From the human T2T-CHM13v2.0 reference genome, Homo sapiens: DNA of 64,000 nt. A program made the translations under genes and the position numbers. The stretch lies in assembly GCF_009914755.1 (NCBI RefSeq), contig NC_060928.1; one strand, written 5' to 3'. The notes under the pieces were generated by a model. That model worked only from the letters and a program-made list of their open reading frames with translations. It searched no databases and was not told the DNA's origin. Of this stretch, positions 41,783-53,599 are shown piece after piece; positions within the stretch are counted from its first letter, which is position 1, and each line of letters opens with the position of its first letter.

Positions 41783-42170
41783 AGAGCTGAGATGCTCAAG
41801 AGTTAGCCACCAGCCACAAGTGACTATTGAATACTTGGGATGGGGCTAGTGTAACAAAGGTAATAAATTTTTAATTCTAATTTATTTTAATTAAAAAACT
41901 GAAGTGTTATATACTTTTCTGTTAAATATAAGTTTATTATTTTGGTGGGATTACAGTTCACTTCCACTGTTGACAATGTTCTATCTTACTTGAGATGTAT
42001 TATAATGTACACAGCTGATTTTGAAGACTTAAGAAAAATGGATTTAATATATCTCACTAATAATTTTTATGTTGATTACAAGTGGAAATAAAAATATTTT
42101 GGATATGTTGCAGTAAATAAAATGTTATTAAAATTAATTTCACCTGTTACTTTATAATGTTTTCATTTTT
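41783..42170 (+). mobile_element. hAT-Charlie (Charlie1b-like) DNA transposon
   Basis: tagccaccagccacaagtgactattgaatact; homologous to 3098-3531. Confidence 0.75.
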
Positions 42171-48180: not shown

Positions 48181-50298
48181 TTCATAGATACTGATTGATG
48201 ATACAAGATCATAGAGAAGAACAAACCATGCAGAGGGAACAGCCAGTTCAGGAGTATATCAGATAATTTCAATTAATCATAAAAAGAGTGGTATGGCTGG
48301 GATGACATTAGCAAGGGGAGAGTAATAGCATATAAATCTGAAGTTGTTTAGTTAGGAGATATAATTTTTGTGTCATTGGCATATAAATGAAATTGAAAAA
48401 CATTAAAGTAGATCATGTCATCAAGGATGTATGATACTCACGCCCTGATCACTGGAGTACTCTGGCATTTAGAACTTGGGCAAATAGACTATGATGTAAA
48501 TGGCACCCACTACAATTGTGCAGATTATATCTGACACAACCATATCTGGTGACCTTCAGAATAACTATAAAAGAAGACAAGAGTAATTATAGGAGTAAAA
48601 ATAATATCAGAAAGGGATATGCTGTATCATTCAAGAGTCAAGCATAGAAAAGAATATTTAAAAGAGATTAATTTGACACAGCAAGTGGCTATTCAGGTGA
48701 TAAAATTTGTTAAACGGCCATCCAGGAGATGAGATTAGAATCAGAAAGATGCTAAACCAGCCCTAGCCTTGAATGAGAAAGGGAGAGGGCAACATTCTAG
48801 GTAGTTAGAGCTTGGGGTCAGCTGGTGGAATTTGGAATAATGGAGGTCCCATCTATTAGGTGGCTGTTGAGTTTGTAATGTGTCTCTTCATTAATTTTAA
48901 CTTGCATGCAAACATGGAGTGTTCCTGAGCTGAGGCAGATTATCATTATTCACAAACAAAGCAAACAATGACCACATGTTTCTTCACACCGTAAGTCTTA
49001 CCCCTAGAGCAGTGTAATGAATCCAAGCCAAATGTCTTCTTCATATAAACTGTGTATCATAGACAAGAAATGTAAAATAATGTGTTTTTTTCCATTTTTA
49101 TATAGGAGAGAGACAGCTTTCCTCATTCCCTTCTGAAATGAAAGGGGCAAGAAACAACTTTTCTCCCTTGAGACACTATGAAAAATATCCTGAATTCTTA
49201 CCTTAACCTTTTGGAATATAAATGTATTAATATCTTTCCAAGAGTCAGATAAACTCTGGGTGTCTCTGGCACTTATGACCTAGAGATTTCTCCAACCTCT
49301 GGGCTTTATACCATCTGAAATGTAAATACCTCGGGAGAAAATCCTTCAGTATTCTTGGCACCTTAGGGCTTAACCTACGGACCTCATCTGGGCCCCTTTG
49401 GCCCTCTGAAATCAGAGCAATTAGCTAGACTAATGGTTATAAATCTAATTCTCATGGTATAACAAGAGTAAAATGTTTCAGAGAGACATGAAAGCAAGTA
49501 TTACAAGTCTTTATATTCCATTCTTTTCTATGTCTCAGGAATTAAGACTTTCCATAGGAACACTGAAAAATCTAAGTACCTATTATTTCCTACCTACTTG
49601 GAGTCACATAAGTGTTAGAGTCAATGCCAAGTTTAACACCAGAAGGAAAGGGAGATAGGGAATAATATTCTGACTTCTCCTTTGCTCCAACTTCTGGTCT
49701 CAAACCAGGGTCTCCAGCTGGCTGAACTAAGCTGAAAGTCAGGTGCCCGGGAAAGACAACCTATAGAGATTTGGATTTTGTGTAACACAGAAGATAACAG
49801 GAAAAAAAAAAAAAAAAAAAAAAGAAAAAGAAAAACAAGGAAAGATAATTGGGGAAAATAAGCACAGGAGATTAGCACAAGTGTCATTGGAGCAGATAAA
49901 GTAAGTGTTTGAAGGAGGTAAATTGATTATGTCAGCTATTGCTGAAGGGTCAAGCGAGATGTGGACTGAGAGCTGTCATTGGAATAAACAACCCTAACAA
50001 GAACTACTTTACTGGAGTCATGATGGGGAAAATGTGGTTCAAGAAAGAATGGGAGAGATTAGTATCAGAGAATATATGCAATTTTCAAGAAACTTTGTCT
50101 TTTTTTATTTTTTTGAGTCAGATTCTCACTAGTGGTACAATTATGATACACTGTACCCTCAACCTTCTCAGACTACTGAGTAGCTGGGTTTACATTCACA
50201 TACTACCATGGCCCAGCTAGTTAGTAATATTTTTATTTTTATTTTTTTCAGAGACAGGGTCTCATTATGATGCCTAAGCTGTCTTCAGACTCCTGGCC

Positions 50299-50494
50299 AT
50301 GTGTCAAGAGTGAATAATATTAAAAATAATTAAAAAGTTGGTAATTCAGCAAATAGAAGACAGGTTTTGGAGCCATGTTCTCTAACAATATAAAAAGCTC
50401 CCTTGTTTAGGAGCACAGGAATTCATCCTGGCTAATAGGAGAGCAGTGGAGTGTGGGCACTTAGGCTGGTTCTTGGCTATGTCTTTGATCTCTC
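50299..50494 (+). repeat. Direct copy of about 50970-51163
   Basis: Shared cctggctaataggagag...gtggagtgtgggcact...gctatgtctttg; roughly 85% identity by eye. Confidence 0.93.
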
Positions 50495-50759
50495 AAGTAC
50501 ATCTTTAGTTGACCTGAGAAAAATCAACAATATAACAAATGAACATAAAACAAAATGAAAAACAGTAATTTAAGTAAATTTATTTCACTCAGTAAACCCG
50601 TGCTCCAGAGTAAACATGAGATAAAAAATTTGAATGTGTGGTGTCTTTCTACTATCCCTCTCAGAATATGAACATCTAAATGAAATGAACAAGATTTCAG
50701 TGCTTAAATGAATAAGGAGTGATTTCTTTTCCTTTTTTTCTTTTTTAGCAAGCCTTTTA
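50495..50759 (+). repeat. Direct copy of about 52631-52879
   Basis: Shared actcagtaaa...gagtaaacatgagat...acatctaaatg...ttttttagcaag; roughly 80% identity by eye. Confidence 0.93.
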
Positions 50760-51439
50760 CATCGTTTGCACCATCCTCTCTCCTCAGCCTCCCAAATCAT
50801 TGAGATTACAGATGTGAAGTACTGTGCCTGGCTCAAGAAACTTTGTCTTAAAGGGCATAGAAAGGAGGGAATGCTAGAGTGATAACTGATGGTAGAAATG
50901 ACAGCTGGGGTGAGTTGTAGTTGTTGTTTTTGTTGTTGTTTAACATTAAAGACATAAGAGAATGTTTGTATGTAGTGTGAAATATACTAAAAAGAATAAA
51001 AAAGTTGGTGATTCAGAAAAGAAAAGACAGTTTTTGGAACCATGTCCTCTAGTGGAATATAAAAAACTCCCTTATTTGGGAGCAAAGGATGTCCCTCCTG
51101 GCTAATAGGAGAGTGGTGGAGTGTGGGCACTGATGCTGGTTCTTAGCTATGTCTTTGTTCTCTTTACTCATCTTATCTTTTGTGTCTAGAATATATTTCC
51201 TCTCCCTCTACATATCTAAATCCATTGCACTTCTAGCCAGCTGAAATCTCACTTACAGCTAACAAGTCGATACAGTAATATCACCTCACTCCTGAATTTC
51301 ACCAGCTTGAATGACACACATCTAAGTAATGCCATTGAAAAGGGCACGGAAACAAAACATATCCTACACCTATGCTAGTGCGGTGTTTCTTCTTTTATTA
51401 ATGAGAGATACTCTACATTGATAAATCCACCACAGTGCT

Positions 51440-52160
51440 CATTATGACCCATGTTATGGTGAACACTTAAGAAGGACATGATTAAAGTTGAATAAAATGC
51501 TTGTATGTGTTCTCCTATAATTATGATTGCTGATAAGTATTAAGTGTCGGAGTTATATGAAGCAAAGGTATGAGGAAATGCCTAATGAGCTTCTTCTTGT
51601 AGGTAGCTGAGAATTAGGAAACTATCTATCAGGTCGGGAGTGCTGAGTTTCTTTGATCAGAAGAGGATGCATGTAACTCGAGGGAGATGTATTAGGTTTT
51701 ATAATAAATACCTAAGAGATACTTGGTAGAAGAGTTTGCAAAATTATAATTGCACAATTATGTATACTTGGGCATATCCTTTATGGGAGAAGTACAAAGA
51801 AAATTTGTAAAAGGACTGGATTCAAGAATGCGGACTTGGTTATGATATATGTGAAGATACCGATGAAACAAAGATGCTGCAAAATGTTTACTTTCTTGTG
51901 ACCACAGGACTGAGTTGAACCAAGAACCATTAAAATAGAAGGTGGGCTAAAATTTAATTGAATAGAGTGGTCCAAGTTGTCCTGGAGAGGGGTTCTTCAT
52001 GTTCATGATAAAAGTCCTATGTAATTGAAATAAACTATACTTAGGAACATAACACATGGAACACACAGTTCACCTTAGGAAAAGTCAGGGGAGAAATCTG
52101 GTAGAGAGCTTTGCATGAAACAAAATAAGGATCATGGGAGGACAAACTTGAGATATAAAT
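51440..52160 (+). pseudogene. Probable ancient Gypsy/Ty3-type pol relic (end of RNase H and integrase)
   Basis: Frame from 51708: IPKRYLVEEFAKL*LHNYVYLGISFMGEVQRKFVKGLDSRMRTW...EPLK*KVG*NLI...HLRKSQGRNLVESF; spacing resembles the HHCC zinc domain and start of the rve core. Confidence 0.5.
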
Positions 52161-53599
52161 AAAAGGAATCACACTGAGTCTATTTGTTGATCATTTCTTG
52201 GGTACTGAAGATATAATGCCTCTCCTACTCATGCCGCCTACTTTACGGTAAAGAAACTAAATGTTAATGATTCCACATTGCCTACCCATGTGTAGGTAAC
52301 ATAGCTTCTGGAAGGAACTCAGGCCTGAAAAAAATCAGAACTTCATTCTTTGAGATACTCTTTAAGATTGTGAAAACTATGCCGTAACTGCTCTTTTTGC
52401 TGCTATTTTCATCTCCTAACAGAATGCAAGAGGTTTGAGCTCTAAAGAAGTAGTAAAAGAATGAACAACTAATATTTTTGTGCCAATTATTGCTTTCCCA
52501 AGCTGTGTAGGTGTATTTCCTTCTCAATTAAGTGATAAGCTTCTTGAAGACAGTGATTAGGGCCTCATTCTTTATTTTTCTTAATGTCTGGGGTCAACAA
52601 TTTCCTGTCCTAAGTGCATTTGGCTTCAGCAAATACATCTTTATCTGAGAAATCAACCCAATAACAAAGAAAAATAAAACAAAATAATAAATAGTAACTT
52701 AAATAAATTGATTTTACTCAGTAAATTCATTCTCCGGAGTAAACATGAGATCAAAGATTTGAATTTGTGGTTTCTTCTTTCTGACCCTCTCAGTACAAAC
52801 ATCTAAATGGAATGAGCAAAATTCCAGTATTTAAATGAGTAAGGAGTATTTTTTTCTTCCTTTTTTAGCAAGTCTTTTATGCCTAATAGGAAAACAAAAA
52901 GAGTGAAAGAAAGAAAAGAAGGAAGGGAGGGAAAGAAAGAGAAAAAAGAAAAAAGAAGGAGCTCTTTCTTTCAGCACTGGGAAAAAATAATGCAGCATGG
53001 GCTTATGGTGAGAATTTTATTTCCAATATATTGCTTTTACAAGGATTTTTTCAGGAGTAAATGTGAACAATATGTTATGTTTGCATACTTACTTTAAAGC
53101 CAAACTTTCCAAAGGCAGTAACATGAGCATATACACTAGTGATTGAATATTTAGAAATCTTGATCCACAAATACTTGGTTGCTTCAGTTTTTCTTTAGAG
53201 GTCTCTGATATAATCCCTCCCATTTTGCATTATTTAGAAGCAAAAAATCTCATATTTCATTAAATTTATTAAGTCATTAACTCTAAGTAAAACACATCAT
53301 TAATTTAATAACACTTTTGGGGTAAAATGAGGAACACTACATTAAAAATTAAGACATATGTCTTTTTAATGAACTCACATACATCACTGATTTGAAAATT
53401 AATTTTAAGCATGTAAGTATAATTTTTAATTCATGAATTGAATGCTTAAAAATATAGGTCATAACAAAGAATACTAAATTGGGACAAACCTATGTTACTG
53501 TTCTTTGCCTAACTGGCAATTATTACTATTATTTTGATTCATAAATATTTACAAACCCAAGCTTTTAAAAAATATAAAATGTTACATCTACATAAAATG

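What the first reader, a model, noticed from the sequence alone, without database searches (positions are those of the whole stretch)
50086..52879. AluJ containing a two-piece insert copied serially from nearby DNA
Seen: a minus-strand AluJ with a perfect 15-bp TSD is split at 50298/50771. The about 470-bp filler is piece A (50299-50494, a copy of about 50970-51163, starting about 140 bp past the Alu) followed by piece B (50495-50759, a copy of about 52631-52879, about 1.8 kb away). Both pieces are in direct orientation and genomic order. The A/B junction sits at a catctt microhomology present just after donor A and at the start of donor B. The Alu then resumes almost where it left off. Inference: serial template switching (Alu to local A to local B to Alu), either by L1 reverse transcriptase during TPRT or by MMBIR/polymerase-theta repair later. 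The 15-20% copy-donor divergence is roughly compatible with AluJ age.
Basis: partly seen in the sequence, partly recalled or inferred. Interest (0 to 1): 0.8.

Follow-up and report, generated by a model that had tools for sequence, protein, structure and literature searches.

The report
Old Alu patched with two local copies
An ancient Alu repeat in a gene desert on human chromosome 4 was broken and mended with copies of two nearby stretches of DNA, a tidy fossil of a known kind of copy-and-paste DNA repair, not a new mechanism.

Summary
The insert is two patches: 50307-50493 copies 50974-51163, and 50494-50759 copies 52630-52879. Both are in direct orientation and genomic order.

A whole-genome search finds no other source. 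The 1.47 kb between the donors is unique, and a diverged-Alu control shows the search can see old repeats.

Both patches have the same distance from their donors (K2P 0.186 and 0.183), which fits one event. That distance spans two lineages, about 0.09 each. The host Alu lies about 0.21 from a consensus of similar Alus. The insert therefore looks about half the Alu's age, which argues against formation by L1 reverse transcriptase at insertion.

The Alu resuming within 7 consensus positions is what the two ends of one break would give.

The CATCTT "microhomology" lies 6 nt inside patch B, not at the junction, and is within chance.

Best reading: later break or stalled-fork repair by local templated insertion. 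This is a known kind and has no functional context. No orthologues were available.

The parts
50085..50101 (.). Left copy of the 17-nt target-site duplication of the host Alu
   Evidence: family D12: 17 of 17 identical to 50833-50849. It is followed directly by the poly-T tail.
50102..50298 (-). 3' part of the host Alu: poly-A tail (read as poly-T at 50102-50115), right monomer with two internal deletions, A-rich linker, and the left monomer down to my consensus position 55
   Evidence: local alignment to the consensus of 13 window Alus, positions 55-281.: alignment to the consensus of 25 genomic Alus, positions 55-286.: this piece finds 463 first-look candidates genome-wide; the 40 scored gave 43 matches at 72-88% identity apart from the 100% self-match.
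50299..50306 (.). Left junction bases of uncertain origin; the uncertainty may run to 50311
   Evidence: 50299-50310 against 50966-50977 is 7 of 12 identical, which is not distinguishable from chance. Read against my recalled Alu sequence, they could also be diverged Alu bases.
50307..50493 (+). Patch A', a copy of donor A
   Evidence: E 1.5e-52, 83.7%.: 163 of 195 sites identical, K2P 0.186 +- 0.034, 2 indel events.: genome-wide E 7.3e-48.
50494..50759 (+). Patch B', a copy of donor B
   Evidence: E 5.5e-58.: 210 of 250 sites identical, K2P 0.183 +- 0.031, 6 indel events.: genome-wide E 2.8e-53.
50760..50772 (.). Right junction, 13 bases of uncertain origin
   Evidence: Not covered by the donor B alignment or by the Alu alignment. 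The best other match in the window is the reverse complement of 51079-51091 inside donor A, 11 of 13. However, 144 of 3000 random 13-mers from the window match the donors as well.
50773..50832 (-). 5' part of the host Alu, full length at its 5' end
   Evidence: 50773-50817 aligns to consensus positions 47-3. 50818-50832 carries the Alu 5' end and abuts the right target-site duplication.
50833..50849 (.). Right copy of the 17-nt target-site duplication
   Evidence: family D12
50974..51163 (+). Donor A; it may begin at 50966. It lies 142 nt past the Alu's 5' end.
51164..52629 (.). Intervening 1466 nt that is not represented in the filler
   Evidence: its only match in the whole genome is itself at E <= 10.: 10 open frames overlapping it (9 lie wholly inside it) have no Pfam family (two hits at E 0.22-0.24, far below cut-off).: no significant match in the window.
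52630..52879 (+). Donor B, followed by a purine-rich simple repeat at about 52890-52960

Best explanation
An old J-type Alu inserted here by ordinary L1-mediated retrotransposition. This gave the 17-nt target-site duplication, the endonuclease-like site and the poly-A tail. Much later, at roughly half the Alu's age, the DNA broke, or a replication fork stalled, inside the left monomer of the Alu. The lesion was mended by copy-and-paste synthesis. The 3' end on the left side was extended on the minus strand of the DNA to its right. It first copied about 190 nt beginning about 200 nt beyond the break (donor A), and then about 250 nt beginning about 1.86 kb beyond the break (donor B). It was then joined to the other side of the break, so the Alu resumes within 7 consensus positions. 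The donors stayed in place.

One simple geometry explains why both donors lie on the same side, within about 2.1 kb, and in direct orientation. Resection of the right-hand end exposes its minus strand over a few kilobases. The left 3' end anneals to it, is extended, is released, and re-anneals. This is in-trans templated synthesis of the alternative end-joining / MMBIR / fork-stalling-and-template-switching family.

Shown: the anatomy, the local and unique origin of both patches, their equal divergence, and the greater divergence of the Alu.

Inferred: a break as the trigger, the order of copying, and synthesis rather than capture of loose fragments. Which enzymes acted is unknown. The element has no visible function.
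For: 1. Structure. One Alu with one pair of target-site duplications is split at a single point, and the two halves abut within 7 consensus positions. That is what the two ends of one break would give.
2. Both patches match neighbouring DNA at E 1.5e-52 and 5.5e-58, plus/plus and in genomic order.
3. No other source exists. The filler has 4 genome-wide matches: itself, the two donors, and a 52-nt stretch (44 of 52) on another chromosome. For the donor region, 11 of 14 matches fall only in its purine-rich tail. The middle piece matches only itself.
4. The search does detect diverged repeats. The host Alu fragment gave 463 first-look candidates; the 40 scored gave 43 matches at 72-88% identity apart from the 100% self-match. 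It also found the donors themselves at 79-84%.
5. One event. K2P is 0.186 +- 0.034 for patch A and 0.183 +- 0.031 for patch B.
6. Later than the Alu. Per-lineage K of the patches is 0.091. The host Alu differs from a consensus of 25 similar genomic Alus at 41 of 227 non-CpG sites (K 0.21-0.22). With CG/TG/CA sites masked it differs at 31 of 155 sites (0.200), above all 25 comparators (0.052-0.170). Equal age gives P 7.7e-6, or 3.3e-3 even if per-lineage K is raised to 0.132.
7. The mechanism class is documented. Forward-oriented templated inserts made by extending one break end on the other end, with primer-template switching, are described in passages of PMC5068794. Strings of 2-7 templates returning to the host locus, and local n-jumps, are described in passages of PMC7025897. 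Local and distant, simple and complex templated insertions with 0-20 nt microhomology are described in passages of PMC11724301.
Against: 1. No orthologue could be examined, so the order 'Alu first, filler later' rests on a molecular clock. That clock compares a GC-rich repeat with AT-rich unique DNA (GC 0.27-0.38), on 155-445 sites.
2. The host Alu is an outlier among its own kind. Part of its excess divergence may therefore not reflect age.
3. The 17 of 17 identical target-site duplication points the other way. Its probability is 0.048 at the filler's pairwise distance and 0.003-0.011 at distances matching the Alu's divergence.
4. Gene conversion between the filler and its donors soon after the event would make the filler look younger.
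5. No microhomology can be shown at any of the three junctions in the present sequence. The A'/B' junction looks blunt.
6. The patches, about 190 and 250-265 nt, are roughly ten times longer than the alternative end-joining inserts quoted in the literature: about 2-35 bp (passages of PMC11724301), or short with the template within 100 bp (passages of PMC8421209).
Confidence: 0.55

Rival explanations
1. One patch, then a deletion. The break in the Alu was filled with a single continuous copy of about 1.9 kb (50966-52879). The copy later lost its middle 1.47 kb, leaving A' next to B'.
For: It needs only two novel junctions at the time of the event. Both patches have equal divergence, as this model also predicts. 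An imperfect short direct repeat (TAC..ATCTT..ATCT) lies at both borders of the middle piece and could have promoted a deletion.
Against: A deletion between those repeats would leave the bases of donor A's side before the repeat. The filler instead carries 6 bases that match donor B (5 of 6) and not donor A. The repeat is within chance: 256 of 4000 random pairs do as well. The model needs a second, independent event confined to the copy. From general knowledge, a 1.9-kb direct repeat only about 0.2 kb from its donor would more probably be lost whole.
Confidence: 0.12
2. Formation during retrotransposition. L1 ORF2p, while copying the Alu RNA from its 3' end, left the RNA after about 230 nt. 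It copied the minus strand of donor A and then of donor B from the target chromosome, then returned to the Alu RNA and finished the last 60 nt.
For: The whole composite lies inside one perfect target-site duplication with an endonuclease-like site and a tail. The cDNA strand is the plus strand and would grow in the direction Alu 3' part, A', B', Alu 5' part, which fits the order seen. Templated insertions and template switching at L1 insertion sites are reported (abstract and a figure legend of PMC11702581). The perfect duplication fits a younger Alu better.
Against: The clock rejects equal age of Alu and filler (P 7.7e-6 to 3.3e-3). The host Alu shows no unusual substitution spectrum that would mark an aberrant, mutagenic insertion (Fisher P 0.65 and 0.32). 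Return to the RNA within 7 positions of the exit point has no homology to guide it. In the passages I read, the known L1 chimeras join sequences end to end inside one duplication and involve RNAs (PMC13174262); none of those is an internal excursion with return.
Confidence: 0.08
3. Capture of two loose DNA fragments. Two pieces of about 200-260 nt, released from the neighbouring DNA (for example flaps or over-replicated pieces), were ligated into a break in the Alu by end joining, without template switching.
For: The A'/B' junction shows no microhomology in the present sequence. Capture of several fragments at one break is documented (passages of PMC11724301).
Against: Both fragments come from within 2.1 kb on the same side, in direct orientation and in genomic order. 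Random ligation would give that arrangement in about 1 of 8 cases (my estimate). The junction sequences are too decayed to tell blunt joins from short microhomology.
Confidence: 0.1
4. Donors once contiguous. A and B were adjacent when copied, giving a single 450-nt patch. The 1.47 kb between them was inserted into the donor site afterwards.
For: Short imperfect direct repeats flank the middle piece and could be read as a target-site duplication.
Against: The middle piece has no other copy in the genome at E <= 10, although the same search detects Alus at 72-88% identity. It has no tail at either end. None of the 10 open frames tested has a protein family. The flanking repeat is within chance.
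Confidence: 0.05
5. Tandem duplication of the segment from the Alu breakpoint to the end of B, followed by two deletions in the first copy. A variant is repair templated by a spliced local transcript.
For: The B'/Alu junction is of the duplication type, and the other two are of the deletion type. An AG lies directly before the first copied base of donor B (52628-52629), as at a splice acceptor.
Against: The first deletion would have to start within a few bases of the duplication breakpoint inside the Alu. I estimate that coincidence at about 6 in 250. Three events would be needed. For the transcript variant, the bases after donor A are TT, not GT, there is no poly-A at either end of the filler, and there is no annotated transcript here (hub table).
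Confidence: 0.05

Closest known systems
Cycles or bridges of templated insertions and local n-jumps, as described for somatic structural variants (PMC7025897, passages read)
   Same: Copies of two templates are strung together and inserted at a host site. The path returns to the host locus, and the donors are retained. All three junctions lie within 2.8 kb, as in a local n-jump.
   Different: This case is germline, fixed and ancient. All three junctions are non-inverted. I did not see the cancer size distributions, which are in extended data.
Polymerase-theta-type templated inserts made in trans on the other break end, with primer-template switching (PMC5068794, passages read; synthesis-dependent MMEJ, PMC2943611, search listing only)
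   Same: The insert has forward orientation relative to the flank. [quoted passage not shown] There are repeated rounds of extension and release, and the break flanks are kept.
   Different: The patches are about 190 and 250-265 nt, and the templates lie 0.2 and 1.9 kb from the break. The figures quoted for such inserts are about 2-35 bp (PMC11724301). Junction microhomology cannot be demonstrated here.
MMBIR / fork stalling and template switching insertions (PMC8421209, passages read)
   Same: Serial template switches give multi-part insertions copied from nearby DNA.
   Different: The events catalogued there are short, inverted, and templated within 100 bp. Here the copies are direct, longer, and further away.
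L1-mediated chimeric insertions such as U6/L1 and Alu/L1 (PMC13174262, passages read)
   Same: One target-site duplication, an endonuclease-like site and a tail bound a composite of unrelated sequences in the same orientation.
   Different: Those chimeras join RNAs end to end and arrive together. Here the foreign DNA sits inside the Alu, comes from adjacent unique genomic DNA, and appears younger than the Alu.
Filler DNA or organelle DNA captured at breaks during primate evolution (PMC2567098; title and abstract from search listings)
   Same: A break in the germline was healed with inserted DNA and fixed during primate evolution.
   Different: The inserted DNA here is a copy of the neighbouring chromosome, not mitochondrial DNA.

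Membership tests
Alu SINE, old (J-type) dimeric element | Body alignable to the dimeric Alu consensus over its full length | tested here: met
   the two pieces cover my consensus positions 3-47 and 55-281.: the same holds against a second consensus. The right monomer carries two internal deletions of 23 and 21 columns.
Alu SINE, old (J-type) dimeric element | A-rich linker, 3' poly-A tail, and flanking target-site duplication at an L1 endonuclease-like site | tested here: met
   poly-T at 50102-50115 and an A-rich linker.: 17 of 17 duplication. The site reads TCTT|AAAG.
Alu SINE, old (J-type) dimeric element | Subfamily-diagnostic positions of AluJ | tested here: inconclusive
   No curated subfamily consensus was available. 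The host is closer to the consensus of 25 old-type genomic Alus (41 of 227 non-CpG sites differ) than to the window consensus (44 of 200). The label J rests on diagnostic positions I recall, not on any call.
Templated insertion at a break or stalled fork (copy-and-paste; alt-EJ / MMBIR / FoSTeS class) | The inserted DNA is a copy of sequence that is still present at its source | tested here: met
   both donors are retained, with genome-wide E 7.3e-48 and 2.8e-53.
Templated insertion at a break or stalled fork (copy-and-paste; alt-EJ / MMBIR / FoSTeS class) | Several templates joined in one event, with the path returning to the host locus | tested here: met
   Two patches have equal K2P, 0.186 and 0.183. 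The host Alu resumes within 7 consensus positions. A single event is inferred from the equal divergence, not shown.
Templated insertion at a break or stalled fork (copy-and-paste; alt-EJ / MMBIR / FoSTeS class) | Short microhomology at the junctions | tested here: inconclusive
   None is visible at 50493/50494. The CATCTT hexamer is 6 nt off the junction and within chance (256 of 4000). About 16% divergence since the event blurs all three junctions.
Templated insertion at a break or stalled fork (copy-and-paste; alt-EJ / MMBIR / FoSTeS class) | Dependence on a particular polymerase or pathway | not testable with these tools
   This needs genetics in cells.
L1 ORF2p template-switch chimera formed during target-primed reverse transcription | The composite is bounded by one target-site duplication with an endonuclease motif and a tail | tested here: met
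L1 ORF2p template-switch chimera formed during target-primed reverse transcription | All parts arrive at the same time | tested here: not met
   By clock only. The host Alu differs at 31 of 155 sites, against an expected 0.086 per site if it were coeval with the filler, P 7.7e-6. The orthologue test was not possible.
L1 ORF2p template-switch chimera formed during target-primed reverse transcription | The partner sequence is an RNA joined end to end with the retroelement | tested here: not met
   The partner is adjacent unique genomic DNA sitting inside the Alu. There is no GT after donor A and no tail on the filler. Known chimeras are as described in PMC13174262.
Nested transposable-element insertion into the Alu | The inserted sequence belongs to a multi-copy family with terminal hallmarks | tested here: not met
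   there are only 4 genome-wide matches. No terminal repeats or tail are visible.

The most novel reading that the evidence does not exclude
The composite was made in a single aberrant retrotransposition. L1 ORF2p left the Alu RNA at the boundary of its 5' domain, used the minus strand of the target chromosome as a DNA template at two successive downstream sites, and then went back to the same RNA. That would be a fossil of DNA-templated excursions by the L1 reverse transcriptase during target-primed reverse transcription. The excess divergence of the Alu body would then need another cause.
Probability: 0.08. Interest if true: 0.6.

Novelty: new member of a known kind. Interest (0 to 1): 0.3.

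Why it matters
The Alu acts as a built-in ruler. Its consensus is known, so the break point, the near absence of sequence loss, and the extent of the foreign DNA can all be read from one genome.

The locus shows that the primate germline fixed a two-template, locally copied repair patch of several hundred bases. Such events are mostly described in tumours and model organisms, usually with much shorter patches.

It is useful as a worked example, and as a seed for a genome-wide search for repeats interrupted by copies of their own neighbourhood. It does not bear on any gene. The nearest annotated exon ends at 41993 (hub table).

Tried and rejected
- A MAFFT alignment of the two Alu pieces with 13 window Alus placed the 5' piece on the homologous right monomer. 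I replaced it with pairwise local alignments.
- An Rfam scan of 49800-53200 gave only two chance-level matches (E 0.63 and 0.77) and no signal-recognition-particle RNA match for this diverged Alu.
- A Pfam scan covered 10 of the 22 open frames of 40 aa or more that the ORF listing returned for 50900-52950. I sent the 10 that overlap the middle piece. No family was found; two hits at E 0.22-0.24 were far below cut-off.
- I tested for an editing-type or otherwise odd mutation spectrum in the host Alu. G>A versus C>T was 12:9 in the host and 264:164 in the comparators, Fisher P 0.65. Transversions versus transitions gave P 0.32. Nothing was found.
- I looked for a third, inverted mini-patch at the right junction. 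50760-50772 matches the reverse complement of 51079-51091 at 11 of 13. However, 144 of 3000 random 13-mers match the donors as well. I keep it only as a weak lead.
- I tested the CATCTT hexamer as priming microhomology. It is off the junction, and as coded the exact-register test saw a run of only 1. With +-3 slop a run of 6 is matched by 256 of 4000 random pairs.
- The 52-nt match on another chromosome does not extend. It is 44 of 52 to patch B' and 38 of 49 to donor B. It is not a source.
- A spliced-transcript origin is not supported: there is an AG before donor B but TT after donor A.
- The age of AluJ printed in PMC3389668 (26 million years) disagrees with the roughly 60 million years given for the main Alu burst in PMC13174262. 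I therefore use only relative ages.

Full report
WHAT IS THERE

A 17-nt direct repeat, TCAAGAAACTTTGTCTT, lies at 50085-50101 and 50833-50849, identical at 17 of 17 positions (D12). The left copy runs straight into a poly-T tract. The right copy is followed by AAAG, so the empty site read TCTT|AAAG, which resembles an L1 endonuclease site.

Between the repeats lies an Alu on the minus strand, in two pieces. Local alignment to a consensus of 13 Alus from the window puts 50102-50298 on my consensus positions 55-281 and 50773-50817 on positions 3-47. A further 15 nt, to 50832, carry the Alu 5' end. Only 7 consensus positions fall between the two pieces. The element is full length, with two internal deletions in the right monomer.

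THE FILLER

blastn of 50050-50900 against the window gives two strong non-Alu matches, both plus/plus:
- 50307-50493 with 50974-51163 (83.7%, E 1.5e-52)
- 50494-50759 with 52630-52879 (78.9% including gaps, E 5.5e-58)

Counting substitutions only, 163 of 195 and 210 of 250 aligned sites are identical, with 2 and 6 indel events.

Eight to thirteen bases at the left junction (50299-50306/50311) and thirteen at the right junction (50760-50772) cannot be assigned.

IS THE SOURCE LOCAL?

- The whole-genome search with the 472-nt filler returned 4 matches. These were the filler itself, the two local donors, and a 52-nt stretch on another chromosome. That stretch does not extend: 44 of 52 to the filler and 38 of 49 to donor B.
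- The 2111-nt donor region returned 14 matches. These were the region itself, the two filler pieces, and 11 that all fall in its purine-rich last 70 nt.
- The 1466 nt between the donors matched only itself at E <= 10.
- The tool warns that very common words are skipped, so I ran a control with the diverged left part of the host Alu. It gave 463 first-look candidates. The 40 that were scored gave 43 matches, at 72-88% identity apart from the 100% self-match.
- The search therefore does see old, diverged families, and it found the donors themselves at 79-84%.
- The filler is not a dispersed repeat. The donor region is unique DNA, and no better source exists in this assembly.
- The middle piece shows no protein-family remnant. 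Ten open frames overlapping it had no family, and it has no tail at either end.

ONE EVENT OR TWO, AND WHEN?

K2P distances are 0.186 +- 0.034 for patch A and 0.183 +- 0.031 for patch B. The equality fits one event.

A copy-donor distance sums two lineages, so the filler lineage has accumulated about 0.09.

To date the Alu fairly I fetched 29 loci with the host Alu as query. I extracted the best Alu in each. I kept the 25 of at least 240 nt, dropping 4 shorter ones, and built a majority consensus.
- The host differs from this consensus at 41 of 227 non-CpG sites (K 0.21-0.22). The 25 comparators have median K 0.154 (range 0.079-0.220).
- With all CG, TG and CA sites masked, the host differs at 31 of 155 sites (0.200). 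That is more than any of the 25 comparators (0.052-0.170).
- If the Alu and filler were coeval, the expected proportion would be 0.086, giving binomial P 7.7e-6. Raising the per-lineage distance to 0.132, to allow for sampling error and the GC-richness of Alu, still gives P 3.3e-3.
- The filler therefore looks about half as old as the Alu.

CAVEATS ON THE CLOCK

- The host Alu is an outlier among its kind, though its substitution spectrum is ordinary.
- Early gene conversion could rejuvenate the filler.
- A 17 of 17 intact duplication is unexpected for so old an element. Its probability is 0.048 at the filler's pairwise distance and 0.003-0.011 at distances matching the Alu's divergence.
- I regard the perfect duplication as partly an ascertainment effect, because it is what made the split Alu noticeable. 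The tension remains unexplained.

JUNCTIONS

The A'/B' junction lies between 50493 and 50494. The six bases after it match donor B at 5 of 6 and do not match the bases that follow donor A.

A strand growing from A could not have used it to prime on B. A strand growing the other way would carry a 6-nt unpaired end.

Runs of 6 or more within the same slop occur in 256 of 4000 random position pairs. In present-day sequence the junction looks blunt.

With about 16% change since the event, none of the three junctions can be read reliably.

MECHANISM

The three junctions are deletion-type (Alu to A), deletion-type (A to B) and duplication-type (B back to the Alu), all non-inverted.

The simplest single event is a break, or a stalled fork, inside the Alu. 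Its left 3' end was extended on the minus strand of the DNA to its right, in two rounds, and then joined to the right end. If the right end was resected over about 2 kb, its exposed minus strand contains both donors. This explains their side, distance and orientation.

This is the in-trans, forward-oriented templated synthesis with primer-template switching described for polymerase-theta repair (passages of PMC5068794). At a larger scale it corresponds to the strings of templated insertions and local n-jumps of PMC7025897 (passages). The general framework of local, complex templated insertions with 0-20 nt microhomology is given in PMC11724301 (passages).

The patches here are about ten times longer than the 2-35 bp quoted for alternative end joining. 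They also lie further from the break than the 100 bp window used for MMBIR inserts in PMC8421209. I therefore do not commit to an enzyme.

RIVALS

- Retrotransposition-coupled switching keeps the attraction of one duplication around everything. It conflicts with the clock. It also needs an unguided return to the RNA within 7 positions of the exit. In the passages I read, L1 chimeras are end-to-end joins of RNAs (PMC13174262).
- One 1.9-kb patch followed by a deletion, capture of two loose fragments, and later insertion of the middle piece at the donor are each possible. Each is less economical or is contradicted in part, as set out under the rival explanations.
- A tandem duplication followed by two deletions needs a breakpoint coincidence, which I estimate at about 6 in 250.

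NOVELTY AND VALUE

This is a clean, ancient germline example of a known class of rearrangement, in a gene desert and without functional context. Its worth is didactic, and it can serve as a template for a genome-wide search.

I searched the paper library for prior descriptions of Alus interrupted by locally templated DNA. None or 36 listed such a case. The library is incomplete, and I claim no priority.

NOT DONE

- The orthologue comparison, which is the decisive test, could not be run because no primate genomes are reachable with these tools.
- There was no curated repeat annotation. The label AluJ rests on recalled diagnostic positions and on the host's closer fit to the old-type consensus.

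Noticed in passing
window 52890-52960: A purine-rich simple repeat (GAAA/GGAA-like) starts about 10 nt after donor B. It accounts for all 11 of the donor region's genome-wide matches other than itself and the two filler pieces. It is not part of the copied segment.
   Followed up: partly
window 50585-50636 and 52716-52764; L004 1501-1552: A 52-nt stretch inside patch B' and donor B resembles a site on another chromosome: 44 of 52 to the filler and 38 of 49 to the donor. In L004 it is followed, about 50 nt later, by a long palindromic stretch (about 1600-1690). It may be a fragment of an ancient repeat.
   Followed up: partly
window 50102-50298 and 50773-50832: The host Alu is more diverged than every one of 25 similar genomic Alus when CG/TG/CA sites are masked (31 of 155 against 0.052-0.170). 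Yet it keeps a perfect 17-nt target-site duplication. Its substitution spectrum is ordinary. This is unexplained.
   Followed up: partly
window 50760-50772 and 51079-51091: The 13 unassigned bases at the right junction match the reverse complement of a site inside donor A at 11 of 13. This could be a third, inverted mini-patch. However, 144 of 3000 random 13-mers do as well.
   Followed up: yes
window 50297-50300 and 50771-50774: The tetranucleotide CCAT stands at both borders between the Alu and the filler, read. It could be a remnant of junction microhomology or of a short duplication of Alu bases. It is too short to test.
   Followed up: no
window 50913-50945: A short TTG-rich microsatellite-like run lies between the right target-site duplication and donor A.
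   Followed up: no
window 49802-49845: An A-rich run lies about 250 nt upstream of the Alu. It matched the A-rich linker of another window Alu over 23 nt. It may be the tail of an unrelated older element.
   Followed up: no
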